A stretch of DNA of 64,000 nt from contig CAJINV010000006.1 in the NCBI GenBank assembly GCA_905178155.1, positions 1,489,876-1,553,875 on the forward strand, given 5' to 3'. Each line of letters opens with the position of its first letter. Positions within the stretch are counted from its first letter, which is position 1. This stretch comes from Amoebophrya sp. A120 (Eukaryota; Protista; Dinoflagellata). The translations under genes and the position numbers were made by a program. The notes below the pieces were generated by a model. That model was not told the origin of the DNA. It was given only the letters and a program-made list of their open reading frames with translations, and did no database searches. Shown here in pieces: positions 4,680 through 64,000 of this stretch.

Positions 4680-6720
4680 CACCGGTGAGAAAGTATTGGC
4701 CGAAACCTGAGCGCTGTCCCATTTGCTTTTAGAAGTTGTCCGACCTCAAAAACGAAAGCGAAGAGCAGAGGCGGCCGCTCGCCCGGCACTGGAAGCGTCG
4801 CGCGATTGCCTGCCGCATTGCCGGGCAGGCATTGCCTGGGGCGCCGCTGCCGGTAAACGCGCCGGCACTGTGCCCGCGGCGCTGCAAGAGGCGCCGAAAG
4901 GGCGGGGGTTCTATGTGCCTGCGATGTTGGGCCCGATGCCCTGGCCGGGTGGTCGGTGTCTACAGCCCGCGCCACTACAGCGGAAAGGCTGAGCAGCACA
5001 GAGAGTCTTGGCGGCCTATTTTCGCCACCCGGTTCAGGTATGGGGCTTGCGTCGTGATCAACATAGGCCGCGCGATCGGCCCGGGTGGCAGTTGGGTGCG
5101 CTATTCGCCCGGTGGCTGGCCGGGGCAGGCGCTCGCGGCGAGGTGGGAGGCAAATTCAACTGCCCAGCAACTACGACGCGACGAGGAATTTGATGAAAAC
5201 CTGCCGCGTGGTGGTTGTGGGACTGCATGCGGGGGGGTGGTGTTGGTGTCGGGGTTGCTCCTGGCCACGGCGTACGCGAGCGTCAGCGCCCACACGGTTC
5301 GGGCGGTCCAGGGTTATGACGATTGCGCCCCGGCGCCGAGTGCTTTGGTGCGTGGAGACGCAATCTCGGCGGGCGAGGTCCGGATGTTGGTCGGCGTGCA
5401 GTATCTCGAGGAGGCCTGTGCGCGCTGAACGCGATCGCACGAGGAGGCGAGGAAAATCCGGCCCGCCACGAAAACCGGAATCGCCTAACCGGTATTTTCG
5501 GCCGGCGGGACGCAGGACCGCGCGTCCGGGCCAGTCGCTCGGTGCGCGCGGAGGGTGTCTTCGCGTTCAGGCATAGGCGCCGCTTCGATTCGCTTTCGCG
5601 GATTTCTTCGGGCGGAGGGAGTTGCCTGTGCGTGGGCCCCGTGTGCCCTCTGTGCCGGACGCTGCTGGTGGGCCGCAGGCGCTTCCTTGGGCCGCCCGGG
5701 CTGGCGTGTCCGTCGTTCTTGCTTTTTATGTGCCGCTGCGCCGGCGGGCACCAGCTTCCTGCGTTCGCCGCGTATGCCTGCCGGCCTTCCTGTAGGCCGG
5801 GAAGGCTTGCCCCCCCGGGTGGCTCCTGGCGGCACGGTAGGGGCGGCCGGCTGGCGCCCCTTCGTTCTGCCCGCCGCGCCGGGGCGGGCCCGGCAGCTGG
5901 CTCGCGGGGCCCAGCCCGGCAGCGCGGCGAGGGCAGCAGGGCAATGCGGCAAAAAGGTCCTGACGCTGCTCCGGGCCCGGCAGATCAGGCAGCCCCGGCC
6001 GGCCCGACCGACCCGACCGAGGGGATGGGCGCGCCCGTCCTTGTGCGCCCATACCTACCGCGCACGAGCGTGCGCGCGCGCGTGGCGCCACGCGGCGCCT
6101 GCGTCGGCCCCGCTATCTTCTTGGCTGACTTCTTTGCCAGCGCCCCAGCTGGCTCGCCGGCCCCGGTTTTTTAGCCTGCCAGCCGTTTCCTTGCCTGCCT
6201 CTTGTTATGTCCTTAGCCCGCCAGGCCGCGACGCAGCGTATGGGCGGGGGCGGAGAGGCTTGCTCGCAGCCGTGCCCCGGCTGGAAATTCGCCCGCCAGC
6301 GCGCCCCGGGTGGCGTGGGTCGCCGTGGCCAATGCGCCGGGCGCGGGGCGAGCGCGCGCCCGCTGCTCGTTTGTTTTTTTTTTGTGTCTCGTGCGAGGCG
6401 CTTATCCGAAGAACGTGTGGCGCTCTGGTTGTTTCCGATCAAGGTTCGCAGCGACTTGTCCTCGTAGTGCGTGACGAAAAGGTAGCCCGGCTCCTCTGGA
6501 CCCTCTCCGCCCGGGCCGCCGGGTGGGCAAGGTCGGTGTTTCGTTGTCTCCCGTATGATGTTCTGTTCCCCGAACAAAACTGGTGGCCCTGCAAAGTTCT
6601 CACCAGTTTGTGTCTGTGGAAGGATGTGCTGAGGCGCAGCAGGAGCCATAGGCCAAACCACGCCAAAAATACATTCCGGGAGATATTAAGGAGGGCAGTT
6701 GTATTGTAGCGTTGCGTCGC
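4680..6720. other. GC-rich intergenic block, probably transposon-derived
   Basis: Abrupt rise in GC; overlapping R/G/P/A-rich ORFs on both strands; no domain recognised. Boundaries approximate. Confidence 0.4.
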
Positions 6721-7044: not shown

Positions 7045-10000
7045 ATGGGCAACGCCGGCAGCACAGCCGGCCAGGAGGCGGCCCTGCTGCAGTTTGCAGA
7101 GGCGGTGGGGACGCTGAAAACCGCAGCCGCGAAAGTGGTACAGCAGCAGGCCCGGACGAATTCACCGGACAGCGCGTGTCTGGATCTTTCTCTCGCATCA
7201 CCCGGTAGTTCCTCGCAGCTGAGGCAAGCGGTGGAGGTTTTGGTTGGAAACCATTTGGACCACCTCCCAGTGGGGCAAAATCATCCATCCTCGTCATCGT
7301 CTACTTCTTCTACTTCACCCTCAGGGAATAAACCAACCGGCACGTCGGCCACGTCGTCCTCAACATCCTCCAAAACGATCCCCCGCGCCGCCATCGCACT
7401 GGAAGACCTCGTCGAGATGCTTCCGGCAACCAACGATGAGTGGCTGTTCACGCGGGTGAAAGGTGCGGAAGGTTTTGCACTGCCGCTGGACGGGATAAAG
7501 AAGGGCAAGAACTCGCCGAAAGCAGAAGACGACACAACTACTAGTGGCCGCGCGGAGATCAAAAACTATGGGAACGAGAAGAACGCCCCTACGACAACAC
7601 TGATCCAGCTGTTATTGCAGAAGCTGATTGACGTTCTGGAAGAAGAAGCGTTTGACTCGCCAGTGGATGACATTCTAGCAGGAGTGGAAGACGATACTAG
7701 CCCAAAGGATGATGACACGAGCAGGCTAATCCAGCTGCAAAATTCGCACCTGAAAAAGCTGCACGCGATTAGGATGTTGACGCGATTACTGCCGATTTTC
7801 CTGGGAACAACGACAGAAGTCGCTGGAATATTATCTTCTGAAGATGGGACGAACAATTATGACCAAGGGGCAACATCTTCGTCGTCGTTGTTGTTCCCGG
7901 GTGCTGGTGGTGCAGAAGACGAGGCCAATTTTCTCGCAGACCAGTCCACGGCCCTGCAGTTTTCGTTCAACTTGCTGGAAGCCATCCAACTTATGCTCTT
8001 TGAGAAGAACAGCAGTGGCACATCAACCAGCAAGACAAACTCCAAATCCCGCACCGACCCGGCGCACGTCGACCCGCGGCTGTTGTGGCGGTGCGGGGTC
8101 GGGGTCGCATTGGAGTATGAGATGATGATGCGACAGTCACCTGCTTCTGGAAGTTCTTCGGGCGGATTCAACAACTCAGCTGGTAGTGGTGCAGGAACTA
8201 CAGCTACTGCTATTGGCGGGTCAGAAAATAGATCAACATCGCAGTACAACCAGACGAGCACCAGAACCACAGACCCCTTCTACTCAGAACTACAAGTCCG
8301 CGAAAAGGAGCAAGAGCTGCGGAATGAGCTCCTTCTCCTTCTCCTCGTGGCCCTAAGCGGCGCCTTGTTTAAAACCGCGGGGGAGTTAGCCGGGCGACAG
8401 GAGGAAATAGTATCGGAAGATGAATTGAGCTTGAGCAACGAAAACACAACTCCAGCGCAAATTGCAAATGCAATGCTCTCCGGGACGAGCAGTACATCAA
8501 GAGCTAGGCAGAGAAGCATGAGTAGAGATGAAGGTGAGATCATGGGTGCGAACGATTTGAGCACCTTGAGTGCCGTGGTGGATGAGAAGTTGTGGCTTCA
8601 GGTTTTCGTCACTGGCTACTTTGCGCATATCAAATGCAAAAGTGTCTGGGTCTGGAAGATTGCGAGATTTGTCATGCTTGTCAGGGATGACCAAAAAGCT
8701 TGTGATGCGTGTCCAAGACCAGACCCCTTTGCCTGTCATGCAAAAACGCAGTTTGTCATGCGAAAAACGCAACACACAGAAGCGCAGAGATTTCTCATGC
8801 GTGGCTGTGCATTACAGAGCATTCACTATTCCCAGCACAGCATTACAAGTTTCCAGACCCAGACATATTTGCATTTGATAGCGCACACCGCGAATCTATT
8901 CTTCTCACTGATGAGCACGGTATTTTTTAAACTTGTTGAACAACAACTTCTGATGAGTTGTTTCCAAGTTTGCATTTGGATTCGCTTTCAACATGATGGA
9001 TAAGTTTTTGCATAATATCTGATTTTTGTAGTCTGTTATGCAGTATGCCTAGGATTGCATCCTCCAAATTGAAATTTCCTATCAGGTCTTCTCCCCACCC
9101 CGCTTACCAATCTCCACCAGTCGATTCTCCTTTCTCGGCGGGCTATTCTTCGGCAATAGTACTAAGTCCGCAACCACGTCGGAGCGTATGGAATTCCAGG
9201 AGCAAAATACAGTGGAATTGAGCATCATGCTGCTCTCCATTCTCCTCGATTTCGAAGCCGGTGCTGGTGCGACAACGTCATTATGCATTGCAAATATGTC
9301 TGGGTCTGGAACAAGGATCCAAACTTGTCATGCTGTCTTTGGATTCTAAAAAAGTCTGTATTGCATGACAAACAAGAGGGGCCCAGATTGTGCTACGCGG
9401 AGAGGGCGTTTGTCATGCGGAGTGGGCATCACAAAGCCTTCCAAAAATCTGTGATGCTAAGTCATGCACTACAGGCACGATGGGTCATGCAGAATATGCA
9501 TGACAAACCCGGCAATCTACTTCCAGACCCAGACCTAGTATTTGCATTTGATAGTCATTCCCTTTCAACAACCAGTCCCCCACGTATAACCAACGCCGGT
9601 ACCAGAAGCGGAATTTGGTCCAAGCGAGGGATGAGGCCGCGTTTGAAAGAGAACAAGAACTTTTGCAGTACCGACAGCAAGAACATGCGGATGTTGAACT
9701 GCAGCAACACAAACTGTCGAAGAACATCAGCGACCAGAATCTCTCTGACGGCGGAGGCACGGTGTCTTCCGCGGATCAGCACGTTTCCGTTTCCAGCTCG
9801 GATCATGATCCCATGTCTTCCTCCGGCGGGGGTATAGGCATAGCCGGCGGTGGTCCTGGAGAAGCTCCGGCAATAGGTCACCCTCCAGCCCCCGCAACAA
9901 GCAACCGCTCCAGTCGGAGGTCGAGCAAAAGTAGAACCCAGGACGTCAACTCGACGAGTTCACAGCTAGACCACGGTGATGGCACAGAGCAAGTAGAATC

Positions 10001-12813
10001 CAATGCGTTCCGGTGTTTACTACAAAGCATCGAGAAAGACTCCGAGCTGGATCTGATCCTAGACTATCAACTGCAAATATGTCTGGGTCTGGAAGAATGT
10101 ATGTTTGTCATGCGTGTCTTGCATGACTCTTAAATCTGTCATGTATGTTACCCAAGAGCCCCATTTTTCTGTCATGCAGAAACGCAGTTTGTCATGCAGA
10201 ATAGGCAACGCCTAGAAGCTCAAAGACTTGTCATGCTGGGCCAGCTCTTGTGGCCTCCTCATGATACGCCACCCAGCATCACAAATTTCCAGACCCAGAC
10301 ACTTTTGCACAGGATATAGATGGGTTCCTAAGGCAGATGAACGTGGCGGACGTGATTATTTACGGCTATAACGCGAACACTTACTCGACTGCGACGTCCA
10401 AAGCGCTCCAAAACCGGGAAGAGAGGAAGGATTTGACGGACACAAACTTGATTCTCATCCTTCTCTGGCAGTGCTTACACCACAACCCGTTGTTGTTACA
10501 AAGGCTCGGAACGGCCAACGCCGGAATCCACACCCCCGGGCAGCCGAGTCGGGGGTTGGTGTTTTCGTTGTTTCTGTTGAAGCAACTGGCGAGAATGCAC
10601 GCCCAGAATTTGGACGCGATGCAGGTCGTGCACAATACTAGCAGCAGTTCTAGTACTTCGGAACAACAGCAGAGTAGAGCAGGTGGCGCAGCAGCTGGTG
10701 TAGTTCCTTCCCAACAAACAATGACCTCCAGAACAGCAGAGCTCCACCTTTGCTCGTTTTTGCTTTTGCTTCTATTATGCGTTGCAAAAGTATCGTACTC
10801 GTATAAATGCATGACAAATTTCCTCAGCATGAGAGGGAGAATTTGTAATGGGGATTTACCTTCATAAAATGATTTGTAATGCATGATTCCCATACGACTA
10901 CGAGTACGATACTTTTGCACAGGATATCTATCGGGCGAACGGAACATCGCAGTTTCTCTCAACATATCAAATGTAAAAATGTCTGGGTCTGGAAGAATGC
11001 AACTTGTCATGCTAAATCTGAAGCATGCAAAAATCTGTGTTGCATGATTACCAAAAGTCGTCCAGTTTTGACCAAGTCGGGAGGGAGTTTCTCATGCAGG
11101 ATAGGCATGAGAGAGATTGCGCAGAATCTGTCATGCTAGGTCCTGCATTCCAGGCTTCATGGGTCATGGAAAAGCTGCATGACAAACCGCGTATTCTTCT
11201 AGACCCAGACATTTTTGCATTTGATCAAACACGAGTATCAACACGAACGGAAATAAGTGGTGGGCGGTGGAGGTGTTAAACTCTTTTTCGAAAAACCTAC
11301 ACAGCACAGGTAGTGGCGTCGCCAAAGCGGCCGCGCGGACAGCAACCGCCGGGCCTCGCAGTACCGAAATGGAGCAGGCGATTCAGCAAATCAGCAAACA
11401 CTTACTTGCAGAGTCCAAGCCCGCCACTTTCGCGGATTTTTTCGTGTTGGTCCTGCTGAAATTGATAAGCGACTCGTTGCTGAAGGATGAGCCGTTGGTG
11501 GATTTGCTACTGACAATCCTCTGCAACATCTCGCCTATGCAGTGCAAAACAAGTATCGTACTAGTATAAATCGCATGACAAATTTCCTCAGCAAGCGAAA
11601 TAAAATTTGTGATGCGGATTTAACCTTGAAACAAAAATTTGTAATGCATGACTGCGATTACTACTAGTACGATATTTTTGCAATGCATATCGCCTTACCT
11701 GAAACAACTGGCGGTCACAACGTGTTTGAAGCTCACCTCCTTTTTCGAACGAATCTGCAAAAAGAATTATCTCTTGAAAAACAGCACGAATTACCGGAAT
11801 TTGTTTCTCCTCATCGAGTTTTTCACCAACATTATCCAGTACCAAGCGGAAGGGAATCAGGTTTTGCTCTACTCTCTCGTGCGGGTCAAGAGTGTGTTTG
11901 AGAAATTGGAAGAAATGGAGTTAGATGAGGAGATTGCAGAGCGGGAGGTTGAAAGGATGAGAAATGACAGAGATCAAGGCCAAATTGCAGGGTCTCAACT
12001 ATCCGACTCAACTACCACCAGCAAGCAGTCTTCCAAGGGAAAAAATACAACAACAGCAGCGGCAGCAGCAGCAACAGGAACAGCTACCTCCGGAAAAGAT
12101 AAAGACCCCAATGAACTACAAGTCAACAAGCAAAGATCCCACAGCTCTGACACGACAACGTCGACCAGCAGGTACGAACAACAATTGCTGAACAAAAAAC
12201 TTTGGTTCCATTCCTGGCACGACCAGAAACTGCCACAAGTTCTCAGCACGGTGAAGCACCTGATTTACAAGCTAGAGCCGGAGATTATTGAGCAGTTCTA
12301 CAACACTGCTCGCGAGGTATGCACTGCAAAAGTATCGTACCAGTTCTAGTATGAATTGCATTACAAATTAGCCCAGCATTTTTAACTAAATTTGTAATGC
12401 TGATTTACCTTGAGAAAGCGATTTGTACTAATGCATAAACGCAATGACTACGAGTACGATGCTTTTGCACAGGATACGAGGGCCCCGCTGGCAACTACGC
12501 ATCCGGAGACACCGCGCCGCCGGATATGGACACGATTATTGAGTACATGCGGACCAACACGACCACCGTCGGTTTACTCCCCCAGCCCCACGCGATTGTG
12601 GTGAGGACGTACATACCAAATTTGTACACGACGATCTGGTTCACGCATTTCCTGTACGGCGCGGCATTTGCGAAGATCACGACGGCGTTGGCGCCGTTGT
12701 CCTCGAGCGCGTCCGGGGGAGTGTCTGCGGCGGGGAACGCGGGGGAAAGTTTGAGTCTCGCCGGGCTGTACGACTGTAAGAAGATTAAGCTGGTAAACGT
12801 GGTGATGGCGTGA
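7045..12813 (+). CDS. HID1: HID1-family (HID-1/Ecm30) Golgi/secretory trafficking protein, ~1354 aa
   Basis: Exons 7045-8627, 8886-8919, 9086-9281, 9559-10064, 10322-10775, 10932-10964, 11232-11535, 11695-12317, 12482-12813 (4065 nt). N-terminal MG myristoylation-type start. Reassembled motifs LLLLSGERN, LLTILCNISPYLKQL, FTNIIQYQAEGN and VGLLPQPHAIVVRTY match recalled HID1 motifs. Confidence 0.92.
8628..8880. mobile_element. Introner, family A (TAT..TGCAAA..GTCTGGGTCTGGAA)
   Basis: TIR; DR GCGCA/GCGCA. Confidence 0.92.
8920..9085 (+). other. Canonical GT-AG intron in HID1 (166 nt)
   Basis: GTATTT...TATCAG; removal gives MST|VFSPP in frame. Confidence 0.8.
9282..9553. mobile_element. Introner, family A
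   Basis: TIR; DR GTCAT/GTCAT; frame restored. Confidence 0.92.
10065..10316. mobile_element. Introner, family A
   Basis: TIR; DR TAGAC/TAGAT; LILD|GFLRQ. Confidence 0.92.
10776..10926. mobile_element. Introner, family B (TAT..TGCAAAAGTATCGTAC)
   Basis: TIR; DR TCTAT/TCTAT; restores LLSGERN. Confidence 0.93.
10965..11226. mobile_element. Introner, family A (3' end ATC)
   Basis: TIR; DR CAACA/AAACA; frame restored. Confidence 0.88.
11536..11689. mobile_element. Introner, family B
   Basis: TIR; DR TCGCC/TCGCC; restores NISPYLK. Confidence 0.93.
12318..12476. mobile_element. Introner, family B
   Basis: TIR; DR CGAGG/CGAGG; can be read as GT-AG intron 12317-12480. Confidence 0.92.
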
Positions 12814-13499
12814 TGAAACAGTGCGCGGCGACTTGGATACAGATACTTACGACGGGGAGGCACGTTGTGGTGTAGTGTTTTCTGGTTTGACCACGAGGAC
12901 GGGAAGTCACGTTGTGGCGTTGTCCTGGAAAGATGTTGACCGTAGTTGGAGAGAGTCGACGAAGATACGGCACTACGTGGGTGCCGAAGGCTGTCGTGTG
13001 ATTCTTGCTCTATTGTAGATTGTTCTTGTAAATAATGCTTGTCAACGCAGATGACGGTTTGCTGAGTTCTTGTCCTCATTTTTATTCGCTAAATTCATAG
13101 GTTGTGCACCAAAACGGATATTAGACGTTGAGTTGTGTGGTTAAGCGTTACAAATAAGTGGTAGAAGCAAAAAAAGAGCTCGAGTGGAAGGCAAACTACA
13201 GCCTGAAGTTGTTTAAGTGGACGCTCCGTCTCCGTGCAATATCAAAATCAAATGTTTGATTTGAGCGAGTGCTAGAGCAGAAGTCTCAACACCTCCGAAT
13301 GAATCTGGTGCAAGTACTAGTACAACGAATGATCGAAAGCTGCAGCCTAACACCAGCGCTGCTTGTTGTGCGCAAAGTGTGACAAAGCGAAAAGTAGTGG
13401 CAAGGCTGATGTTCATACCCGTGTTCAAGAACAGAGAAAGAGATGAGCTTGAGGAGGAGGAGGACGAGAGAGAGAGATCTACAAAAAACAGACTCACTT

Positions 13500-14640
13500 A
13501 AGCCGTACGCCAGACATCGCCAACGGGTGAGGCCGCGACCTCGCGCTGGCCGCTTGCTTGCGTTGTAAAGTCTCGCGACCTCTGCGGCTACAGGCACGGC
13601 CGCAAAAGTTACAGGCCGGCCCCGGGCGGTTTTTTGGGCCCCGCCTCCGGGTGTTGGCGATCAGCATAGGCGCCCGGAGGATCGTGGTCGATTTCTTCTA
13701 CGGTTATGCCCAGTGCTCCGCCGCGATACGCCTGGTTTTTCTTCTTCGATCGGCGCCGCCCGCGGTTCGCCTGGCTGAGAGGACCGAGCAGCGGCAGAAG
13801 GCCCCCGGGCCACCCGCTACAAGCGCAGCGCCCAAGTGGAGGGGCGCCAGGGGTGCAGGGGCGTCGCGTCGCGCCCGCCCTGGGCCTCCTTGCCCCCCCC
13901 GGCCCGCCGGCGTTTGGGCCCAGGTTGTGAGCCCCGCCCGGGGGGGGGGGTGGGGCGCCGGGTCGGGTCGTGCCGGTTTCTGGGTGAGCGTTGCCGCCCC
14001 CTTGGGGCGGTGGTGGATCGGCTGCAGGAGCTCGATCCCCAGCAGGCAGGGAGGCAGCCCCCGAGAGGAAGAAGTCTCGCCTATCGTGCAGGGAGGCAGA
14101 AGGCTCGCCTATCGTGCAGCCCGGCCGGCGCGGCCGTCGGTCTGCGTCTAGGATAGGAAGGTCCCGCGTGTTCTCCCCCAGCGGAACAGAAGCCGCCGCC
14201 GCTGCGCGGCCGGGCCCTGTTCGTTGTCTGTGTTTTTTTCTTTGGAGCCTGGCGCCCTGGTGCCGCCCTTTGTTTGTGGGGCGGGGGGCGCCCACCTGGT
14301 GCCGGAGGGGGGGTGGCGCCTTGGGGCCGGCTCTGTGCCCTTGCCTCGCTCCGCTAGCCCGGCCGGGCGCTGTGTCTCTTCCGGCCGTGTGCTCTCTTGC
14401 CCCCCCGGACCGGGGTGGTGTTGCCCTTGAATAATTCGGGTTGGCGCCCCCCCGCCCAAACGCCGGGCCCGCCCCCCCGTCCTATCAGCGCCCCGGCCCG
14501 GGGCCGGGTGGGTGGCTGGGTGGTGTGTCGTTGCCAGATTCAGGCGCGCAGAGAGACATCCGCGCCGCCTGGCCACCCCTTGGGTGGCACGCGCGCCCGC
14601 GGACGGATCTTGGTGGGGCCGGGCCTAAGCGCAAATTAGT
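13500..14640. other. GC-rich intergenic block, probably transposon-derived
   Basis: Abrupt rise in GC, G/C homopolymer runs, short direct repeat CTCGCCTATCGTGCAG x2 (~14076-14120). Boundaries approximate. Confidence 0.4.
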
Positions 14641-14899
14641 GTATGAAGATTGGATACAATTTGGCCACGCGTTTGAAGGAGCCTTGAAACAAGCAAAGTA
14701 AGGAAAAATATTCAGGCAACATCATGCAAGCAAGGCGACGCAGAGCGCTTCCATCCATCGCAGAGGCAATAAGTGCTAGCAGATGCCTACTCGTTCCGAC
14801 AGTTCCAGGACCAGGCCTCTCTTATTCTCTGTGAATGTTGTTCCCCCCGCCACCGTTCAGATAACAGGCCATCCAAGGAGGTAGGCCCCTCCTCCCAAA

Positions 14900-15667
14900 A
14901 TGAATATGATCCCGTCTTTGCTACCCGTAGAAGTTACAGACGCCAGACGTAGATCTTCTTCTTCTTCGTTGCGTGAAAATAAGATAGACAAGAGCTATGC
15001 TGTCACCAAGAAACGCAATCTATTGCGCACTGCCCTACCAGACGAAGTCTTGCCGTATTCCTCAAAGGTAGGAGGTCAACTAGAAGAACAATTATTCAGT
15101 CCTGCTCGCCCTGATGCGACGTTTTTGAAGAATGAGAAAAATTTTAGAAAGCCAACCGTAGGTAGCTCCTTTGATGGCTTGTTGGAACCTAAAAAGAGTA
15201 ACGATGTTGACGAGAAAGTTGTAAAGCTGGACACAAATAAACGTCGTGGTGTTGAGAACAACAAGCACGATGCTGAAGATTATGTCGAGTTGCAGCTATT
15301 GCCAAAAAGAAGTACTGGTAGAAGCACAGCAGTAGAATTTGACGCAGCCTGTGCTTCTGCAGATGAAAATCAATTTCAATTTCGTCCAAACCAACCTAAT
15401 TGTAGAACCTTTGGAGAAGTACAACTAGCAGTAGGACGAGTTGTAGATTATGCAAAGAACGACCCTAAAAATCAAGGACGTAGAACAGCAACTGGCCGCT
15501 GCACGAGTAGAGCCGAAAACTCCTACTTGAAATTTACCACCGCCTCGGTTCCCTTCGGGAGCACCCCTGGACTTGTCGTGGACGACAGTCTAAAGCGGTT
15601 GAAAAATGAGCAGAAACTGAGTAAAGACCTCAACACGCGCCTTGTTCAGGAGAAGGAAGCACGGGAA
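14900..15667 (+). CDS. Upstream coding segment (256 codons), in frame with centrin once insert 15668-15903 (+5 nt) is removed
   Basis: Long ATG-initiated open frame; junction reads KEARE|NKMNRTRG. No recognisable domain. Confidence 0.5.
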
Positions 15668-15903
15668 TATGACAGTGCACAAAGACCCCCCGCCCTCGTC
15701 CTCACTTGCATGTTGGCAAGAACAGCAACACAAGCAACGGCAGCTATGTGGCTTCCGCATGACAAACACGCGCACGGATCATTGTAGTACTATTTGGAAA
15801 TATCATTCCGAAATTTGGCGTGCAGGCACTGCCTCAGGGCAGGATGTGGGCTTGGTGTTTTGCATTAAAAATGAGGGAGAGGGTGGAGCTGTGCACTCTC
15901 ATA
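15668..15903. mobile_element. Introner, family C
   Basis: TIR; DR GGGAA/CGGAA. Confidence 0.87.
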
Positions 15904-15914
15904 CGGAAAACAAG

Positions 15915-18900
15915 ATGAACAGAACGAGGGGCAGAACGACGAAACACGTCGTCAATCCAGCAAGCAAGAAGGGGCTCGGTACTTTTTTGGATGTAGAGCT
16001 GTTTGTCATGCGCAGTTTACTTACAGAATGGAAGTTTGTCATGCATTAATGCCACGACGAACAAGAGATTTCTGAAATTATCAGATGACGAGCAGCTAGA
16101 GGAGCTTCGGGAAGCTTTTAACCTCTTCGACGCCGACCGATCTGGGGTCATTGACGCGAGGGAATTGAAGGCAGCAATACGAGCGCTTGGTATATAATCG
16201 CAGAGGTGCATTGTAGTGTTTTTCTTTTTGTTTATGTTTTACTCCGAAAGCGGGGGTTCCAGGGTCCGGGTTGCCGAACCCGTGCAGAACTTGCGGAGAA
16301 CTCGGCTGCGCGTGTTTCTTGTCTAGAATATTAGAGCCTGCCGGCGGTCTTTGAAATATGATGACGATCCCGATGATGCAGCACTCCGCGAAAGTGAGGC
16401 GGGCATTCGCGTTGAGACTTCCCGTTACGCCTGAGACTCCTAGGCGGCGCGCCATTTTGCGGCGGGGGGCATCTGTGTTTCCGCTCCGCGCGCCCTTCCT
16501 CATCGGTAGTTTCCCGCGCCAAGTCTTGAAGGCAGGCTGCCGGGGCCGTCCGCTTGCGCCTTTGGTTTCCTCGGCATTTTGTTGGCCACATGCGCGCGAT
16601 CTGCGCACTTTTGCAAAGAAGTTGCTGCAGTACCATCGTGTAACGTACGTTACACGATGGCGCTCTGCTTGTTTGCCTTATCGCTTGCCGGCCAGCCTAA
16701 CCAGGGTAGAGAGCCCTGCTTTTAGCCTGTCCATGGCAGCATCGTGAGTAAAGTTAGCCACGGCGGAAGTGCGTTGCTTTGGTTGTTTTCGCAGCTTCGG
16801 GCGCAGTGTGCTACGCCTGGGAGTGAAGGCCGGACGGTGTGGCTAACGACTCCACAGGCGTGCCAGAGGCCCACCAGAGTAGGGTAGCTTCCAGCTGCGC
16901 GGCTCGGTTTGGACGGTTGTAGATGGGGCGCCGCGGTTGCAGCCTGGGGCCCTGTTACCCAAGAAAACCGGCCACGGCTCTCATGCGCCAGAATTTGAGC
17001 CAGAACTTGATCCAGAACTTGCTCCAGAACTTGTTCCAGAACTTGTCTCAGAACTTGTCTCAGAACTTGTCGCAGAACTTGTTCCAGAACTTGCCTCAGA
17101 ACTTGCCAGGAGCTTGATTTTGTGCCCTTTTTTGGCCCACCTTTTTGTCCCGTACCACGACGGCACGGCCGTTTTTTCCCCTTCTTTTTTCCGGCCCCCG
17201 AAAACCGTCTCGGCAAGTTCCTGAACAAGTTCTGAGACAAGTTCTGGGACACACGAGCTCGGCGACAAGTTCTGGACCAAGTTCTGCGCCAAGTTCTGAG
17301 GCTCGCAAGTTCCGGGAAGAGTTGGGGCTCTGGAGCAAGTCCCGCAGCAAGTTCCCGAACAAGCCCCGGGGCAATTCGCGCCGTAACACGTTCCCGCGCT
17401 AGCGCCCCCCCCCAGCAAGCCCTTTGGGAAGTATATTCGGAGCAAGCGAGCCCCACCACGGGGCCCGCGGGCGAGCGTGGTTCGGGCCCTGTTGCTGGGA
17501 GGAGTGCTATGTCGGATCGAGCGCGCCGGCTTTTGCCGCTGCATGCCAGCGGCGTGCTCTTGGGGGCGGCGCGCTGCGGGGGCGCGGCCAGGCAGACAGC
17601 CCCGCAGCGAGCCTTGTCGGCCGGCCACATCTTCGGCGCCCCGGGGTTTTTTTGAATGGATTGTGGGTACAGGGATGCGGTGTTCCGCGCTTTGGCAGTG
17701 GAGCCGGTCTGGGTGTTCGGCGCAGTCTTTTCCCCCCTCGGCAGGCGAGCGGCGTAGGTGGGCCGGGCCCTGGCGCCGAGTGGCCCCCCGGAGTGTTTTC
17801 TTTGTTGTCATTGCCTCGCGGGCCGCTGAAGCGCGTTGCTTTATTCCCCGTTTGCCCAGCAAGCGAAGCCGCGTGCCACCGTGTAACGCGCGTTACACGC
17901 TGGCGCTGGCCTTTCGCCTGAGAAGGCTGGCTAAGCAGGCAGGACGCTCGAAACTCGCTCACTGGCCGCGCGGGGCCCTACTGCTTTGACCCTCCCGGAA
18001 ACGGGCCGAACAAGTTCCGCGCAAGATCTGCGCGAATTCGGGGCACCATACATCTAGACCCATGCTTTATTATGTTTTCGCAAAATTTGTGATGCATGCT
18101 TCTCTAGAGCCTACGATACTTATTGCGGAGTTATTTGTGATGCGATATCAAGATGACTATCCTGCTCTGTATTGCAAAAGAACATTTACAACAAACCCCT
18201 CAGGTTTCGTCGTGAAGAAAGAGCAAGTCCGGCAGATGCTCCGAGACGTTGGCCGCGACGTTAGTACGCATTGCAAATATGTCTGGGGGTGGAAGATTGC
18301 GGCTTGTGATGCTGGCTTTGGATTTAAAACAAAGCCTGTATTGCATGACCAGCAACAGGGATCCAGTTTGTGTTTGTGCTACCCGGACGAGAAGGTATTT
18401 CTCATGCGGGATAAGCATCAAGAGGCCCACCTCGCCTCGTAAAAATATTTGATGCTAGAGCATGCATCAGAGACATCAAGGGTCATCATGCAAAATGTGC
18501 ATGACAAGCGTTTCACATTTCGTCCACACCCAGGCATATTTGCATTTGATAGTTGGTTCCCAGATAACATTCGAGGACTTCGCGAAGATCATGGCGGGGA
18601 AGATGGGCGACAGGAATAGTCGAGAGGAAATTAACAAAATTTTCAAGCTCTTCGACGAGGACGCCAGCGGCAAAATCTCGTTCCGAAATCTAAAACGAAT
18701 CTATCAGAGTGCAGAACTCCCCCTGCCCCTCATTTGTATTGCATGAAAAGCATTACAAGCCCCAGCACAGGTGGACCCTGTGCATGACAAGTTCAGGAGC
18801 CGAGTGTAGTACTGTTTGGATTGTTTTCGGAATTTGTCATGCACGCGGTGCCACAAGGTAGCAACAGGATTTGGGTTTTTGCATGACAAATGAGGGGGAG

Positions 18901-19357
18901 AAGTAGTTGTGCACTGTCATAGAATCGCGCAGGAGATAGGCGAGAGTTTGAACGACGATGAGTTACAGGAGATGATTATCAAGCAAAAAAGTGTTAACGT
19001 TGATGGTTTTCACAAATGGCAGCTACGCATTACAAATTTTGCCTTCATTGCATGCTACGCAATACAAATTTGGACACCCTTTCTGATGCGTTACTGCATC
19101 ACAAATTCCGTTAACGTTAACGCTTTTTCTTGTGATACTGATAGACGAGGCCGACCGGGACGGGGACGGGCTGATCAATCCGGACGAGTTTTACCGTATT
19201 TTTATATTTGGAGTGATGTGAATCTGTGATGCGAGACTGGGTTGCTTGGTTTGATTTGTGATGCGAAAATGGAAATGAAAGCAAAAACACGACCACAGGT
19301 GTAATGCGCAAGCGTGGTGACAATCCACTCGACGACTTTGATACGGATGACGATTAG
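15915..19357 (+). CDS. Centrin (4 EF-hand), 178 aa from ATG 15915; possible 258-aa N-terminal extension from ATG 14900
   Basis: Exons 15915-15978, 16085-16189, 18204-18264, 18557-18701, 18927-18976, 19143-19195, 19299-19357 (537 nt). Reads [39 protein letters not shown]...[73 protein letters not shown]. Confidence 0.95.
15979..16084 (+). other. Canonical GT-AG intron in centrin (106 nt)
   Basis: GTACTT...TATCAG; removal gives KKGLDDEQ. Confidence 0.88.
16270..18045. mobile_element. ~1.8-kb GC-rich insertion with foldback features inside the long centrin intron
   Basis: Imperfect inverted ends (GCAGAACTTGCGGAGAACT versus AGTTCCGCGCAAGATCTGC), internal opposed 12-mer arrays and two related palindromes. 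Boundaries approximate. Confidence 0.55.
16990..17365. repeat. Opposed 12-bp tandem arrays
   Basis: About 10 copies of CAGAACTTGnnn at ~16990-17110 face degenerate CAAGTTCTGnnn copies at ~17213-17365. Confidence 0.85.
18265..18551. mobile_element. Introner, family A
   Basis: TIR (TAC start); DR GTTAG/GTTGG; frame restored. Confidence 0.9.
18702..18921. mobile_element. Introner, family C
   Basis: TIR; DR GAATC/GAATC; restores LKRIAQE. Confidence 0.93.
18977..19137. mobile_element. Introner, family F (TAT..AAAAAAGTGTTA)
   Basis: TIR; DR ATGAT/CTGAT; restores EMIDEAD. Confidence 0.92.
19196..19298 (+). other. Canonical GT-AG intron in centrin (103 nt)
   Basis: GTATTT...CCACAG; removal gives EFYRVMRKR. 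Confidence 0.88.
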
Positions 19358-28441: not shown

Positions 28442-30975
28442 CCATCGTGATTTGGTTAGTAGGTGGATCCCTTCGGAACGCAGAAAATAGAAGAAAGGGA
28501 TAGCATAAGAGGCGTCTTTGGTGTGTGTGTGTTGTGTAAAGTGTGGAGGAAGTTGGTTTCCTTGCTTGAATTGCGAAACGCGAAAAGCGAAAAAAATACA
28601 AAGCCGATCCATAACAGAACTCACACAGTAAGCAAAGAAAAGGGGGAGGCGGCTCCAGAAATGCGAAACACGAAAAACGAAAAGAGCCCCAAGACAATGA
28701 ATATAGTAGGCAGAGAAAAAGCGGAAGCGGCCCACGAAAAGCGAAGCGCGAAGAAAACGACCGGGGAAATAATCAGCAGAAGAGGTAGAGAGAAGCGAAG
28801 GCCGACCCCGAAATGCGAAACGCGAAAAGCGAGCCCAGCCGTTTGGCTTTGTTCTGCCTTTTTTTTCATCACAACGAACCCCCCTCCTTGCTTTGAATGG
28901 TATGCACACAGCCCCGCGCGTTTTTTTTCAATAGCGACGCGAGCGATCTTGGCGAAGCTCCGCACTTCATACGTTGCGCAGCTATTTTGCAAAGGAAAGC
29001 AAAAGGGAAGGCGTCCAATTCGTGGAGGCCCGGGCCCCGAGGGCGTTTTTGCTTGCTCGGTCTCAATATTGTCGCGAGGGATGTTGCCCGCCCGTGCGCC
29101 CGCAACAGATCGACGCGGCCCCCGCCCGCGAGGGGCTGCGCCGTCATCAGCAGAGCCAGTCTAGCAACATAACGCAAGCTAACAACTAACAAGCGCCGGG
29201 CCGGCGCGATCTTCGACAGGATACACCGAAAGGGCGCGCACGCTACAAACATGCCGCGCGCACTACAAGCGCGCGCATACGGGGGGTCTGGGGCGCCCGG
29301 GGGCCGGTGCAGCGCATTTCTCCAGGGTGGCGCCGCGCGCCCATGTGGGGGGCGGGCCCCACATCCGGCCGGGGCAGATCGGCGGCTGGATGGCAGCGAG
29401 CCCCACTCGGCAAACCCAGGCTGGCCAGTGCGGACCGCCGGCGCGACCGCGAGCGCTTTCAGGGGCCGCATTTTGCTCCGCGGGCGGATTCTCGCTGAGA
29501 GAAGGGCTAGGCCTGTTGCCATGGGCAAAACCTTTGCAACGCCATCGCTTTCCAGCTCGATGGCGCTCAGGGATTTGCGTTGCATTTTTCTACCGATGAG
29601 GGGCCTGCGCTTTTTTCTTCGAACCACGAGAGGGCTTTCGCTTCAGTAATCCGCCTGCGCTTTTGGATGGTTGGGCTTGCTGCGGTGAACAGGGTCGCCT
29701 CCTTCTCGTCATTAATTTTTTGCGCGCAATGAATCGCGTGGGTTTGTTTGCATTTGCTTCCATTGGTGGAGAAAAGTGCGCGCGCTTTCATTCTCGAGCC
29801 ACGAGCGAGCTGCCAGCCTGATTTACTTCGCCGGCGCTCTTAGGTGGAATCTGTTGCGATGGCCCTGGTCTCCTCGCGAAACCCTCGCAACTTTGTGCTG
29901 CCGCCCGCGCCTCGAACACGGTGGGGGCGGGGCTTGGCGCCGGCGGCCCTCAGGGGCGGGCGCCCATCGCTGCGCCCTGCTACATTGGTGCGCCCGCCGG
30001 GAAGTTTCTCGCGATATTCATTTCGCCACACACACACACAAACAGAAGCGCCCCCACGCGAATGCCCAGCGTTTTCGTTTCGGGCCTACGCAACAGGGCG
30101 CCAGCCCCGCCCTAGGCTGCGGCTGGTGCGACCGACCAAGGGCCCGCCGCGCCATTTGGCGCGGCATGGGCCAAGCGCTGCGACTGGGATCCATGCCTCC
30201 GCTTTCCGCGCGCCCCCCGCCCCGGCCTCTCGCCCGGCCAAAACAAAGACAGGCGGGCGGGACGGTGGTCCACGTCGATCTGTTGTGCTTGGGCGCACGG
30301 GCGAGCCGCGTGCCTAGCGACAACGCCAAGACCAAGAGCCAACCCCCCCGGGTCCCCGGCCTCCTAGAACTGGACGCGCCCCCATGCGCATACAAACTAT
30401 AAGTAGCCCCGCAGGATATTAAGTGTGGGGATCGTGGATATCGCTAGTGCGGAAGGGAAGGAGAGACAACGTCGGAGGCGGCGCCGAGCGTCGCCAATGT
30501 CTCTACTTAGTAAGAGGCGAAGGGCCTGCCTTCTTTCCTCACCGCTTTTCGCGGGCGCTTCGTGTTGCTTTCTCTCTTCTTACTCTACTCATTATCAGGG
30601 AGCCCACCCCGGTCGCTTTGTTGTTTTTCGCGCTTCGCATTTCGGAGGCGCTTCCGCTGTCTCTCTTCCTGCCCTACTGAGTAGCCACGGCCCCCCTTTT
30701 GGCTTTTCGCGTTTCGCATTTCGGAGGCGCTTCCGCTCTCTCTCTTCCTACTCTATTAATTGCCCACGGCCCCCCTTTGGTTTTTCGCTTTTCGCGTTTC
30801 GCATTTCGGAGGCGCTTCCGTTGTCTCTCTCTTCTTACTCTCCGAGTTCTCTATTGCCTTACTTTGGTTTTTCGATCGCTTTTCGCGTTTCGCATTTCGG
30901 AAGCGCTTCCGCTCTCTCTATAGTTAACTGGACAGATCTGCGATCTCTTTTAGGAAATTAGGTGAATCACGGTGG
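28442..30975. mobile_element. ~2.5-kb GC-rich foldback-type non-coding element (intergenic)
   Basis: Inverted subterminal arrays: GAAATGCGAAACGCGAAAA-like units at ~28570-28830 versus TTTTCGCGTTTCGCATTTCGGAGGCGCTTCCG units at ~30620-30915. Inner inverted homology ~29005-29130 versus ~30255-30385. Possible termini CCATCGTGATT / AATCACGGTGG; no TSD seen. Confidence 0.65.
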
Positions 30976-61500: not shown

Positions 61501-64000
61501 ATTTAACCTCGGATGACTCCCGGGATTCCAGTTGGTACCTGAACACGGTCGTGCGGGGGCAGAAGCGAAACGTGGTCATATCAACTGCAAAAGTGTCTGG
61601 GTCGGGAAGGATGCGAAATTGTGATGCGTGTTGCGGATCATACAAAAATCTGTGTTGCATGACTTGCAAAAGGTCCCCACTTTTCGTCATGCCCGGAGGG
61701 TATTTCTCATGCAGAATGGGCATCATCAAGGCGCTGCAGAACCTGTGATGCTAGGCCCTGCGTTCCAGATTTGGCGGATGCTAGGCACTGCGTGACAAGT
61801 GTCGGAATCTTCCAGACCCAGACACTTTTGCATTTGATAGGTCATCGCCGTGGACATCTCGATGTCCATGTGGAATTCGGAAACGGTCACGAAAACGGGC
61901 GCAGACGGCAAGGAGTACCAAGAGTACATTCCCAACACGCAGCGATGGGAGAACGCGCGATCCGCGGTGGACAAAGCGCTCGATGGGTTAGACGGGGCCA
62001 AGTATGACAGTGCACAACTCACCCTCGTTCTCATTTCTCTTGCAAAACACCAAATCCACGCTTTCCCTCCTGTCACGATTATGCATGACAAGTTCTGGTA
62101 GCCCAAGAAATAGCTGCATCCAGTTGTACAAACTTGTCATGCAAACCGGCACTCTTGTTGATGCTTGTATTGCCGTTCATGCTATACAAATGAGGGGGAG
62201 GAGGAGTTGTGCACTGTCATACCAAGGGGGATCGGTTCAACGTGATGGTTTGGTCGACGGATGTGTTTTTCTCCTCTTTCGAATTAGTTCGGGCGATATC
62301 AACTGCAAACATGCCTGGGTCTGGACTGCTTGAACCTGTATTGCGTGTTTCGGATGCCATGAAAATCTGTATTGCATAAGCACCAAAAGCTCCACTTTTT
62401 CCTTTTCGTCATGCAAAATCGCAGTTTGTACTCGTAATGCGTGCTGCGTATGAGGAAGCGACTGAAAATAAACTTGTCATGCTTCACTGCACTTAAAGGC
62501 ACACTCAATCGTGACCATTCAGCATTACAAGTTTCCAGACCCGGACATATTTGCATTGGATAGGCGACCAAGGAAAATATTTTGAAAGCGAAGATCTGGC
62601 TGAAGGAGCAGGCGGGCGCGGCGATGCTGGAGGGATCGGGAACACACTACCCTTTGTAAAAACGTCCCCACCCCATAGTCAAGTTGGTAAATCTGCAACA
62701 CAAATCTCCAAGCTTTGGGAGTTTTGCATGACAAGTTTCCATCTGTAGCGTCGTTCTGTTTAGCAAGGGAAGCCGCATGAGAAAGCCAGCTTCTCATCCC
62801 GTTTGCAGCATTACAAAGTTCAAAAGACGACCCCTGGATGTGCCTCTAATACAGATCCGCATCACAAGTGTTGCTCTCATTGCCGATTTGCATGACAACT
62901 CTGGGGTCGTGGGGACGTTTTTTCTTGGGATACGCACCCGGAGTGGGCGCTGGCGAGCGCGCTGGCGTTGGGGACAAAAGGGATTGTCCCGAAGCCGCTG
63001 CTATCAAATGCAAAAATGTCTGGGTCTGGTTCTGGAAGATTGCAGGAGTTTGTCATGCATGTTTTGGATCACGCAACTGGTCTCTAATGCACGCAAAAGC
63101 TTTACAGGTTTTGCGCAGGCCTCCTGATGTCTCTCCCGCATGAGAAATTCCCTGTTTGCGTAGCAAGAAATGGAAAGCTTTTGGTGCTTATGCAATGCAA
63201 GTTTTTGCCTATTCCAGAATTCGCATGACAAGTTCCAACTCTTCCATACCCAGACATTTTTGCATTTGATACCTGCGGGACGTGTATTTCAATCCAGAGC
63301 ACAGCACGGTCGTGAAAGATGGTATTAATGGGACAGCCGTCGACCAACTGTGGGGGAGTATGATCACGGAGTTGGATCAGCAGGGAGACTGGGCCGCGAT
63401 TCCGATCAGCTGGGTGAACAGCTCGCCGCGGAAGGTCCCGTGGGGCGAGAGCAAAACCACGGTTGAGGAAAGGTTAAATAGGATCTCGGAAGAGTTTTTG
63501 AAAAAAGAATCCCGGGAGCGCTTCGCCGGGAATGCAGATCTGGAAAACGCCGAGTGCGTTTTGTGGTCCGACTTCTGCTATGGATTGCAAAAGTATCGTA
63601 CTCGTAAATGCAATACAAATTTCCTCAGCATGAGAAATAAGATCTGTCATGCAGATTTACATTGAGAAAAAAATTTGTAATGCAGGACTGCAATTACTAC
63701 GAGTGCGATACTTTTGCAGAGCATATCTGCGAAACGACAGTGTTGTTCATCACCGACGCGGATAACTACAAGAGCCAAATGTGCCTCGAAAACAAGGACG
63801 AACAGGGTAACTGCCCAAGCGGCAAAGTTACGGTCTCGCCGGAGAGTTTTCGCGGGGAGGACGGGAGTTCGGCTGGGCAGATGTTGCAGGATTTCGGGAA
63901 GTTGTTTAAAAAGGACTGGGGCGTGCTGCTTCAAGCTTTTGTGATGATTGACGAAGACACTTACGACATGGCGCAGGACGGGTCTGGCGCTTACCCGAAA
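58550..64000 (+). CDS. Second alpha2delta-like VWA protein (paralog of 39596-46473); runs off the right edge; start may be ATG 58628
   Basis: Exons 58550-59421, 59577-59968, 60124-60195, 60515-60577, 60841-61332, 61489-61578, 61845-62002, 62227-62296, 62568-62647, 62938-63001, 63277-63578, 63731->64000. DSRDSSWY..KRNVVIAVDISMSM, GDRFNV, FELVRATKEN and DFCETTVLFITDA align with the first copy. Confidence 0.85.
59422..59571. mobile_element. Introner, family B
   Basis: TIR; DR TCCAC/TCCAC. Confidence 0.92.
59969..60118. mobile_element. Introner, family B (5' end AAT)
   Basis: TIR; DR GAAGA/GAAAA. Confidence 0.85.
60196..60509. mobile_element. Introner, family E
   Basis: Long near-perfect TIR TATGGAAGCGTCAGGTTTGAAATCG; DR GGTGA/GGTGA. 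Confidence 0.93.
60578..60835. mobile_element. Introner, family A
   Basis: TIR; DR GAGGA/GAGGA. Confidence 0.92.
61333..61483. mobile_element. Introner, family B
   Basis: TIR; DR CCTGA/CCTGA. Confidence 0.92.
61579..61839. mobile_element. Introner, family A
   Basis: TIR; DR GGTCA/GGTCA; restores NVVIAVDISMS. Confidence 0.93.
62003..62221. mobile_element. Introner, family C
   Basis: Perfect TATGACAGTGCACAACTC TIR; DR CCAAG/CCAAG. Confidence 0.93.
62297..62562. mobile_element. Introner, family A
   Basis: TIR; DR GGCGA/GGCGA. Confidence 0.92.
62648..62932. mobile_element. Introner, singleton type
   Basis: AAAAACGTCCCCAC / GTGGGGACGTTTTT TIR core; DR CACAC/CGCAC. Confidence 0.85.
63002..63271. 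mobile_element. Introner, family A
   Basis: TIR; DR GCTGC/CCTGC. Confidence 0.9.
63579..63725. mobile_element. Introner, family B
   Basis: TIR; DR TCTGC/TCTGC; restores DFCETT. Confidence 0.92.

What the first reader, a model, noticed from the sequence alone, without database searches (positions are those of the whole stretch)
8920..19298. The introner core motif TTTGT[C/G]ATGC also lies near the 3' end of all four canonical introns, in sense orientation only
Seen: TCTGTTATGC 9032-9041; TTTGTCATGC 16002-16011 and 16035-16044; TTTGTGATGC 18086-18095 and 18134-18143; TCTGTGATGC 19223-19232 and TTTGTGATGC 19255-19264. The last copy ends 44, 40, 60 and 34 nt before the intron end. Introner families with unrelated TIRs carry several copies as both TTTGTNATGC and GCATNACAAA. 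I did not notice the motif in exons or intergenic DNA. Inference: it is a host intron-definition signal (branch-point-like site or RNA-binding-protein site) rather than only a transposase site. Introners would carry it on both strands so that they splice in either orientation.
Basis: partly seen in the sequence, partly recalled or inferred. Interest (0 to 1): 0.9.

Follow-up and report, generated by a model that had tools for sequence, protein, structure and literature searches.

The report
Helix-spaced motif shared by introners
A ten-base motif recurs, often in pairs about 32 bases apart, in dozens of unrelated intron-forming transposons and in a minority of ordinary introns of this marine parasite, on either strand, so it is likely a double-stranded-DNA binding site used for transposition and left behind in introns that likely descend from such elements, rather than a sense-strand splicing signal.

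Summary
All seven copies are where stated, RNA-type contigs confirm the four GT-AG introns, and none of the window's 123 hits lies outside introns. The interpretation mostly fails.

In 553 kb from a close relative, 86 GT-AG introns predicted without using the motif gave 6 with a sense copy, 7 with an antisense copy and 74 with none. An antisense-only intron is RNA-supported. Introner copies keep the motif equally in sense and antisense (p=1.0), and one single-polarity family inserts both ways.

New here: 57 of 71 unrelated introner units carry the motif, 34 of 74 adjacent same-strand spacings are 31-33 bp, and the first site is phased at about 10.5 bp from the element tip. That points to a protein binding double-stranded DNA. 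Canonical introns keep the same spacing, and some align with an introner family beyond the motif, including window 15979-16084.

Best reading: subterminal transposition sites surviving in introners that became GT-AG introns. A host DNA-binding intron mark is not excluded. Earlier scan notes describe hairpin introns elsewhere, not this motif.

The parts
8920..9085 (+). Canonical GT-AG intron (166 nt) in a Hid1/dymeclin-family gene; one motif copy at 9032-9041
   Evidence: joint 8918>9085; Pfam Hid1 in exons of the gene; no introner homology beyond the motif
9032..9041 (+). Motif TCTGTTATGC, ends 44 nt before the acceptor
15979..16084 (+). Canonical GT-AG intron (106 nt) in an EF-hand gene (centrin-like, name recalled); motif pair 33 nt apart; collinear with the 3' half of family-1 introners, likely a converted introner
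   Evidence: joint; EF-hand hits; nhmmer 16.8 bits against motif-preserving shuffles 8.7+/-3.0, p=0.015 uncorrected; alignment
16002..16044 (+). Motif pair TTTGTCATGC at 16002-16011 and 16035-16044
16190..18203 (+). Canonical GT-AG intron (2014 nt, mostly a GC-rich insert); sites at 18086, 18134 and a looser one at 18167 (spacings 48 and 32)
   Evidence: joint
18086..18175 (+). Motif trio TTTGTGATGC, TTTGTGATGC, (T)CTGTATTGC
19196..19298 (+). Canonical GT-AG intron (103 nt); motif pair 32 nt apart (19223, 19255); no introner homology beyond the motif
   Evidence: joint
8628..8880 (.). Family-0 TIR introner (TAT...ATA, 5-bp TSD), removed with one TSD copy
   Evidence: skip of 258 = 253+5
12318..12476 (.). 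Family-1-type TIR introner, the family to which intron 15979-16084 aligns
15668..15903 (.). Spliced introner with no strict sense copy (2 antisense; one 1-mismatch sense site 40 nt from the end)
18977..19137 (.). Spliced introner with no strict sense copy (3 antisense; one 1-mismatch sense site 48 nt from the end)
18265..18551 (.). Spliced introner whose last strict sense copy is 207 nt, and last 1-mismatch copy 144 nt, from its 3' end
62648..62932 (.). Family-3 introner (single-polarity family) with 5 antisense copies and no strict sense copy, inside a predicted reading frame; removal is predicted, not RNA-tested
   Evidence: no Pfam hit on the flanking exon pieces

Best explanation
The motif (consensus AAA-[T/C][T/C]TGT[C/G/A][A/T]TGC) is likely a binding site for a protein that reads double-stranded DNA, most likely the machinery that mobilises these TAT...ATA, 5-bp-TSD introners, and its copies in canonical introns are likely relics of introners that lost their inverted repeats and came to be spliced at GT-AG ends. 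Shown: the motif is shared across families, sits at fixed 31-33-bp spacing, is phased from the element tip, is conserved without regard to the transcribed strand, and is present in about a fifth of canonical introns on either strand. Inferred: a dimer or multimer binds two sites three helical turns apart on one face of the DNA near the element end. Loss of one half of an element leaves a same-polarity pair in a short intron, which explains why each window intron shows one polarity. That all four are sense is then chance (1 in 16 if each intron is a coin toss). Splicing of intact introners likely rests on other features, such as the terminal hairpin (not tested).
For: Spacing: 34 of 74 adjacent same-polarity spacings in 71 non-redundant units are 31-33 bp. 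First inward-pointing sites cluster at 30-33, 39-43 and 51-54 bp from the tip (Rayleigh R=0.49 at 10.5 bp, n=55, p<1e-5). Orientation blindness: sites intact in 560 of 1054 sense and 565 of 1052 antisense cases, p=0.79; private changes 80 of 2678 against 80 of 2654, with 8.0% outside the motif. Families insert both ways (family 0: 57 to 73). Family 3 has no strict sense site in 12 of 20 coding-context copies, 8 of them none at one mismatch either. Canonical introns: sense-only 9 (4 from the window), antisense-only 6, both 2, none 75 of 92; binomial p=0.61. L040:1319-1554 (antisense only) and L040:2465-2582 (both) are RNA-supported. L040:456-566 (antisense only) splits Adaptin_N between profile positions 325 and 327. 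Relic origin: L030:1731-1890 is a decayed family-1 element (41 bits, p=0.005, the floor of 200 shuffles); 4 of 18 introns reach p<=0.05 against 0.9 expected. Canonical introns keep the 31-33 spacing (7 of 25 spacings against 0.8 expected). Copies with an aged TSD lose motif bases about as fast as flanking bases (+1.1% against +1.4%).
Against: No transposase or autonomous partner was found: one longer element had no convincing ORF by inspection, and Farhat et al. report no transposase in A120. 14 of 18 motif-bearing canonical introns show no introner homology beyond the motif, yet 9 of 17 keep two or more intact sites. The L040 ones are single-copy in DNA contigs (depth about 19-35 against more than 89,000 over an introner). 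Intact pairs in immobile introns fit continuing selection better than neutral decay. The ageing test has a wide interval (difference -1.3 to +1.9%). Helical phasing beyond the 31-33 peak is weak (p=0.05 at 10.5 bp). The window's 4 of 4 is richer than the relative's 13 of 88 (Fisher p=0.0009) and is unexplained except by after-the-fact selection and three introns sharing a gene. At one mismatch there is a mild sense excess (39 sense against 18 expected, 27 antisense against 15). The two spliced window introners without a strict sense site do have a 1-mismatch one 40-48 nt from the end. Most introns in the relative are predicted, not RNA-verified.
Confidence: 0.6

Rival explanations
1. A host-encoded protein binds the paired sites on double-stranded DNA in either orientation and marks introns during transcription, or organises chromatin there. 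Introners of unrelated families converged on the site because it lets them be spliced or tolerated, and some canonical introns still need it.
For: Shared by 57 of 71 units whose TIRs share little beyond the first bases. Retained as intact, correctly spaced pairs in single-copy, TIR-less introns. All-or-none pattern: the 75 introns without a strict site show no 31-33 pairs at one mismatch. U1 snRNA and an A120 transposase were not found by Farhat et al.. The TIR tip lies within a few bases of the splice site, so phasing from the tip does not separate this from transposition.
Against: 75 of 92 canonical introns lack a strict site. Aged copies show no protection of the motif (weak test). Bimodality also follows from two intron origins, old host introns and introner-derived ones. 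The parent families may simply be unsampled: the library held 12 families plus 59 other elements, against 1954 families reported for A120. I recall no precedent for a DNA-bound mark that sets splice sites.
Confidence: 0.25
2. One reading: a sense-strand RNA signal (branch-point-like T-N-A-T core, or a PUF-like UGUnAUGC site) that defines introns, carried on both strands by introners.
For: 7 of 7 strict copies are sense in the window, last copy 34-60 nt from the acceptor. The core fits a recalled yUnAy branch consensus. Mild sense excess at one mismatch. 1-mismatch sense sites lie 40-48 nt from the end of two spliced introners. PUF genes are reported in Amoebophrya.
Against: No strand bias, and absent from 74 of 86 predicted introns. 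Antisense-only introns are spliced. No sense advantage in conservation. The putative branch A is T in 19% of 1412 element sites. The last sense site in introners lies anywhere from under 50 to over 200 nt from the end. A single-polarity family inserts both ways. Rigid 31-33 spacing is not expected of single-stranded RNA (inference).
Confidence: 0.08
3. The motif works in double-stranded RNA, as matching sites on the two arms of the introner hairpin, three A-form turns apart.
For: Several families place opposite-polarity sites symmetrically (family 0: 40 and 72 from the 5' end, 39 and 70 from the 3' end). An 11-bp period fits the residual spacings at least as well as 10.5.
Against: Family 3, and 15 of 17 motif-bearing canonical introns, carry one polarity only and cannot pair the motif. 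Canonical intron ends show no specific complementarity (6.4 against 6.2 for swapped ends).
Confidence: 0.05

Closest known systems
Introner elements of Amoebophrya sp. A120 (Farhat et al. 2021, PMC7789003; passages, sections 11 and 16 in full, supplement legends)
   Same: Inverted repeats starting TAT, seven variable bases, then an A run; short direct repeats; about 240 nt; non-canonical junctions; co-oriented genes. The window most likely comes from this organism or a close kin (inferred from architecture, not shown).
   Different: The parts I read describe no shared internal motif, spacing rule or branch point ('ATGC' 0 times in the supplement text; figures S14-S25 could not be seen). They also do not describe introner-to-GT-AG conversion by decay.
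Subterminal transposase-binding repeats of TIR DNA transposons (piggyBac/piggyBat, and Tol2, Tag1, Ac, Hermes, Tn7 as cited in PMC11707139; passages)
   Same: Short repeated motifs inside the ends, in arrays, with position and spacing that matter.
   Different: Here one motif is shared by dozens of families with unrelated TIRs, runs through the whole 150-350-bp element and persists in GT-AG introns. No binding protein is identified.
IS3EU/GingerRoot DNA transposons (PMC10045372; passages)
   Same: TA..TA termini.
   Different: TSD is usually 6 bp there and 5 bp here; no transposase was found, so these are not filed as members.
U2-type branch-point sequence (TACTAAC / yUnAy; consensus recalled)
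   Same: T-N-A-T core; window copies end 34-60 nt upstream of the acceptor.
   Different: Not strand-specific, not general, not fixed in position, A not invariant.
Nonconventional introns of euglenids and MITE-derived introns of Fritillaria and Polarella (PMC11282704, 10.1101/2020.10.14.339549; passages)
   Same: TIR/TSD-bounded introns, insertion in either orientation, end-pairing proposed to guide removal.
   Different: No shared, helically spaced internal motif in the passages seen.

Membership tests
U2-type branch-point sequence | Present on the sense strand only | tested here: not met
   6 sense and 7 antisense of 86 predicted introns; antisense-only intron L040:1319-1554 spliced
U2-type branch-point sequence | Present in most introns | tested here: not met
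   75 of 92 lack a strict copy, and those 75 show only 27 against 18 expected sense sites at one mismatch
U2-type branch-point sequence | Narrow distance to the 3' splice site | tested here: not met
   36-151 nt in predicted canonical introns; under 50 to over 200 nt in introners
U2-type branch-point sequence | Invariant branch adenosine | tested here: not met
   A 0.81, T 0.19 among 1412 element sites scored with a pattern allowing either
U2-type branch-point sequence | Complementary to U2 snRNA; lariat branch maps to it | not testable with these tools
   No genome held; no Rfam match in 145 kb scanned of about 617 kb held; U2 alignment is a figure; no raw reads of this strain
Subterminal transposase-binding repeats | Several short repeats inside the ends of TIR/TSD elements | tested here: met
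   10.1 copies per kb in elements; 57 of 71 units
Subterminal transposase-binding repeats | Constrained spacing and position relative to the end | tested here: met
   31-33 bp in 34 of 74 spacings; first site phased at about 10.5 bp from the tip
Subterminal transposase-binding repeats | Conserved independently of transcription direction | tested here: met
Subterminal transposase-binding repeats | Bound by the element's transposase and needed for transposition | not testable with these tools
   needs binding and transposition assays
Subterminal transposase-binding repeats | An autonomous partner with the same ends and motif exists | tested here: inconclusive
   none in about 617 kb, roughly 0.5% of a 115-Mb genome
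Amoebophrya A120-type introner elements | IR starting TAT + 7 variable + A run; 3-5-nt direct repeat; multicopy; removed from RNA | tested here: met
   TAT start in 384 of 424 elements (partly set by the search), perfect 5-bp TSD in 298 of 424; 12 families; joints remove element plus one TSD. This applies to the introners, not to the four canonical introns, which lack TIRs.
IS3EU/GingerRoot | TA..TA termini | tested here: met
IS3EU/GingerRoot | 6-bp TSD | tested here: not met
   skips equal element length + 5; flanks
IS3EU/GingerRoot | DDE transposase of that clade | tested here: inconclusive
   no autonomous element found
PUF-type single-stranded RNA element | Strand-specific UGU-initiated 8-mer in the transcript | tested here: not met
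   sequence resembles it (recalled), but conservation and occurrence are strand-blind

The most novel reading that the evidence does not exclude
A host protein reads paired sites three helical turns apart on genomic DNA, in either orientation, and marks the enclosing segment for removal from the nascent RNA. This would be a DNA-encoded intron mark in a lineage whose U1 snRNA has not been found. It would let dozens of unrelated transposon families become introns without splice-site dinucleotides, and it would be kept in the canonical introns that descend from them.
Probability: 0.2. Interest if true: 0.92.

Novelty: new variant of a known kind. Interest (0 to 1): 0.58.

Why it matters
How Amoebophrya introners move without a recognised transposase, and how they are spliced without canonical ends or a detected U1, are open questions (PMC7789003, section 16). 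A single motif with a strict spacing rule across unrelated families gives a concrete bait for finding the protein involved, and a marker for finding autonomous partners and introner-derived canonical introns. It also suggests intermediates in the conversion of a hairpin introner into an ordinary GT-AG intron. If the binder is a host splicing or chromatin factor rather than a transposase, it would be a new way of defining introns.

Tried and rejected
No whole genome is held for the window, and loci handles were not searchable. The viral-contig scan gave one hit that I took as chance and left out.

No RNA holder is listed as such. Raw-read runs X8-X10 laid only 4-177 reads, mostly partial, so they could not show lariats.

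Rfam found nothing in 145 kb, so U2 complementarity is untested.

An ordinary branch consensus (YTNAY, CTRAY, TACTAAC) is not enriched 12-100 nt from the acceptor in 92 introns. End-to-end pairing in canonical introns is no better than for swapped ends.

A search for long autonomous elements found two genuine longer TIR elements and one spurious pairing. The ORFs of L019:505-1608 looked like low-complexity frames and were not searched against families.

Pfam gave no hit on the exon pieces flanking the family-3 copy at 62648 or the L054, L049 and L028 introns, so those rest on gene prediction alone. IS3EU membership was rejected on TSD length.

Literature searches for a prior description found none. 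The library lacks most subscription papers, and supplementary figures and datasets were not visible. Earlier scan notes held nothing on this genome or motif.
Full report
Setting. The window is eukaryotic DNA with co-oriented genes interrupted by about 55 short elements bounded by inverted repeats TAT...ATA and a 5-bp target duplication. This matches the published description of Amoebophrya sp. A120 introners: IR starting TAT, seven variable bases, an A run (PMC7789003, section 11). The species is my inference. No genome is held.

Observation. TYTGTNATGC occurs 123 times against 1.38 expected. 113 hits are in called TIR elements, 3 in two degenerate elements judged by eye, 7 in the four canonical introns, and none in the other ~48 kb. 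Contigs of run X1 (RNA by guess) skip exactly 8920-9085, 15979-16084, 16190-18203 and 19196-19298 with GT..AG ends, and skip introners together with one TSD (15 of 32 joints shown, first 20 kb only). Distances of 44, 40, 60 and 34 nt are right, and there is no strict antisense copy. The introns lie in a Hid1/dymeclin gene and an EF-hand gene. My gene model predicted no further good GT-AG intron in coding parts of the window, but it recovered only 2 of these 4 exactly, so others may be missed.

A larger sample. A pattern scan with an introner TIR returned 150 loci, all from one assembly (JACKZZ01). After merging, 60 pieces of 2 kb or more gave 553 kb; 77 shorter pieces were dropped. Laying X1, X2 and X5 on L040 showed about 97% identity in exons and the same intron positions, so this is a close relative of the window's organism.

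I cut out 372 TIR elements and ran a gene-finding HMM that had no knowledge of the motif. Its splice matrices were seeded from 35 introns chosen as GTA...CAG, so that consensus is partly built in. Of 183 predicted introns (window included), 88 passed filters on splice score, length up to 400 nt and no overlap with introner-like DNA; 86 of these are from the relative. In L040, five joints are listed as CT..AC and a sixth 111-nt skip is listed as TT..TA. The sixth fits the predicted GT-AG intron 456-566 if the strains differ by one synonymous base, and Pfam places its flanking exons at Adaptin_N 283-325 and 327-445. Four of these six were predicted exactly.

Of the 86 introns, 6 hold a strict sense copy, 7 an antisense copy (one has both) and 74 neither. 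Adding the four window introns and two RNA-found L040 introns gives sense-only 9, antisense-only 6, both 2 and none 75 of 92 (p=0.61). Sense sites lie 36-151 nt from the acceptor. Density per kb is 10.1 in introners, 1.05 in canonical introns, 0.21 intergenic and 0.024 coding. So enrichment in canonical introns is real, but strand bias, generality and fixed position are not. Against my reading: at one mismatch sense sites number 39 (18 expected) and antisense 27 (15 expected), and the window's 4 of 4 is richer than 13 of 88 (p=0.0009).

What the introners show. 424 elements formed 12 families of four or more plus 59 others. Families insert in both orientations. Motif sites are intact in 560 of 1054 sense and 565 of 1052 antisense cases. 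Changes private to a copy hit 80 of 2678 sense and 80 of 2654 antisense motif bases, against 8.0% outside. Family 3 carries one polarity only, and 12 of its 20 copies in coding context have no strict sense site, 8 none even at one mismatch. Overall 47 of 344 coding-context elements lack a sense site and 48 lack an antisense site. Two of nine RNA-supported window introners have no strict sense copy, though each has a 1-mismatch one 40-48 nt from its end; another has its last such site 144 nt away.

The geometry. 57 of 71 non-redundant units carry the motif. 34 of 74 adjacent same-polarity spacings are 31-33 bp, and the first inward-pointing site clusters at 30-33, 39-43 and 51-54 bp from the TIR tip (R=0.49 at 10.5 bp, n=55). 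Without the 31-33 peak, phasing among spacings is marginal (p=0.05 at 10.5, 0.003 at 11; several periods tried). Head-to-head pairs peak at 16-17 and 48-49. A fixed three-turn spacing and strand blindness are what one expects of a protein binding duplex DNA (inference). Arrays of subterminal transposase sites are known in many TIR transposons (PMC11707139, passages).

The canonical introns. Their sites keep this spacing: 33, 48+32 and 32 in the window, and 7 of 25 spacings at 31-33 against 0.8 expected overall. With motifs held fixed and the rest shuffled, 4 of 18 motif-bearing introns match an introner profile beyond the motif at p<=0.05 (L030:1731-1890 0.005, L054 0.010, window 15979-16084 0.015, L041 0.030; uncorrected) and 14 do not. 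Window 15979-16084 aligns with the 3' half of family 1, with both motifs and the end in register, and L030:1731-1890 begins G-TATGCAT, close to the family's own first bases. None of these introns retains paired ends. The 75 introns without a strict site show no 31-33 pairs at one mismatch, which suggests two classes: older host introns and introner-derived ones.

Mechanism. Most likely (0.6) the motif is a subterminal DNA site for the transposition machinery, and canonical introns bearing it are converted introner halves. The main rival (0.25) is a host duplex-DNA-binding factor that still selects for the pair. In its favour, intact pairs persist in single-copy immobile introns, and Farhat et al. 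found neither U1 nor an A120 transposase, although Gozashti et al. attribute A120 introners to several transposon classes, including TIR elements (PMC12130899, passages). An ageing test using TSD decay showed no protection of the motif but is too weak to decide. The sense-strand RNA signal gets 0.08 and a duplex-RNA site 0.05.

Novelty. The introners are known. I found no description of the shared motif, its spacing or its survival in canonical introns in searches, or in the passages read of PMC7789003, PMC12130899, PMC11282704, PMC12787238 and 10.1101/2020.10.14.339549. Supplementary figures and datasets were not visible and could hold it. The termini resemble IS3EU/GingerRoot but the TSD length does not fit. 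Earlier scan notes list hairpin introns in other genomes and did not alter this reading.

Verdict: observation confirmed, interpretation partly supported, a new variant of a known kind, interest 0.58.

Noticed in passing
canonical introns, window and L002-L071: The donor consensus is G|GTA[T/C/A], which reads like G plus the introner's first bases TAT/TAC. The set was seeded on GTA...CAG, so this is partly circular. An insertion after a G would create such a donor.
   Followed up: partly
canonical introns, 92 sequences: No polypyrimidine tract: the last ~25 nt are A/C-rich and G-poor, the first ~35 nt T-rich, and no ordinary branch consensus is enriched.
   Followed up: partly
window introners, e.g. 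10065-10316 and 15668-15903: Where the two TSD copies differ, the RNA keeps the upstream first base or the downstream last base, so the cut falls inside the duplication.
   Followed up: partly
window 16200-18050, 4700-6600, 13500-14600, 28900-30400: GC-rich, motif-free stretches with little or no RNA-contig cover where laid (first 20 kb). One makes up most of the 2-kb centrin-like intron and holds short tandem repeats at about 16995-17110. Probably another repeat class.
   Followed up: no
L019:505-1608: A 1.1-kb TIR element with a perfect 5-bp TSD, motif sites at 41 and 73 from its left end and a GC-rich interior without a convincing ORF.
   Followed up: partly
window 39596-46470 and 58628-64000: Two introner-rich genes with similar segments; VWA hits just below the cut-off in the first. 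The second carries about a dozen introners.
   Followed up: partly
window 10962-11051: Reads of the more distant run X8 match part of a family-0 introner inside an unrelated transcript, so the family, or a retained copy, exists in that organism.
   Followed up: no
L031 and L023/L012: Paralogous or allelic genes share canonical introns at 76-92% identity, usable for dating intron decay.
   Followed up: no
window 28560-28830 and 30620-30910: Inverted clusters of short GCGAAACGCGAAAAGCG-like repeats flank a GC-rich block (seen).
   Followed up: no
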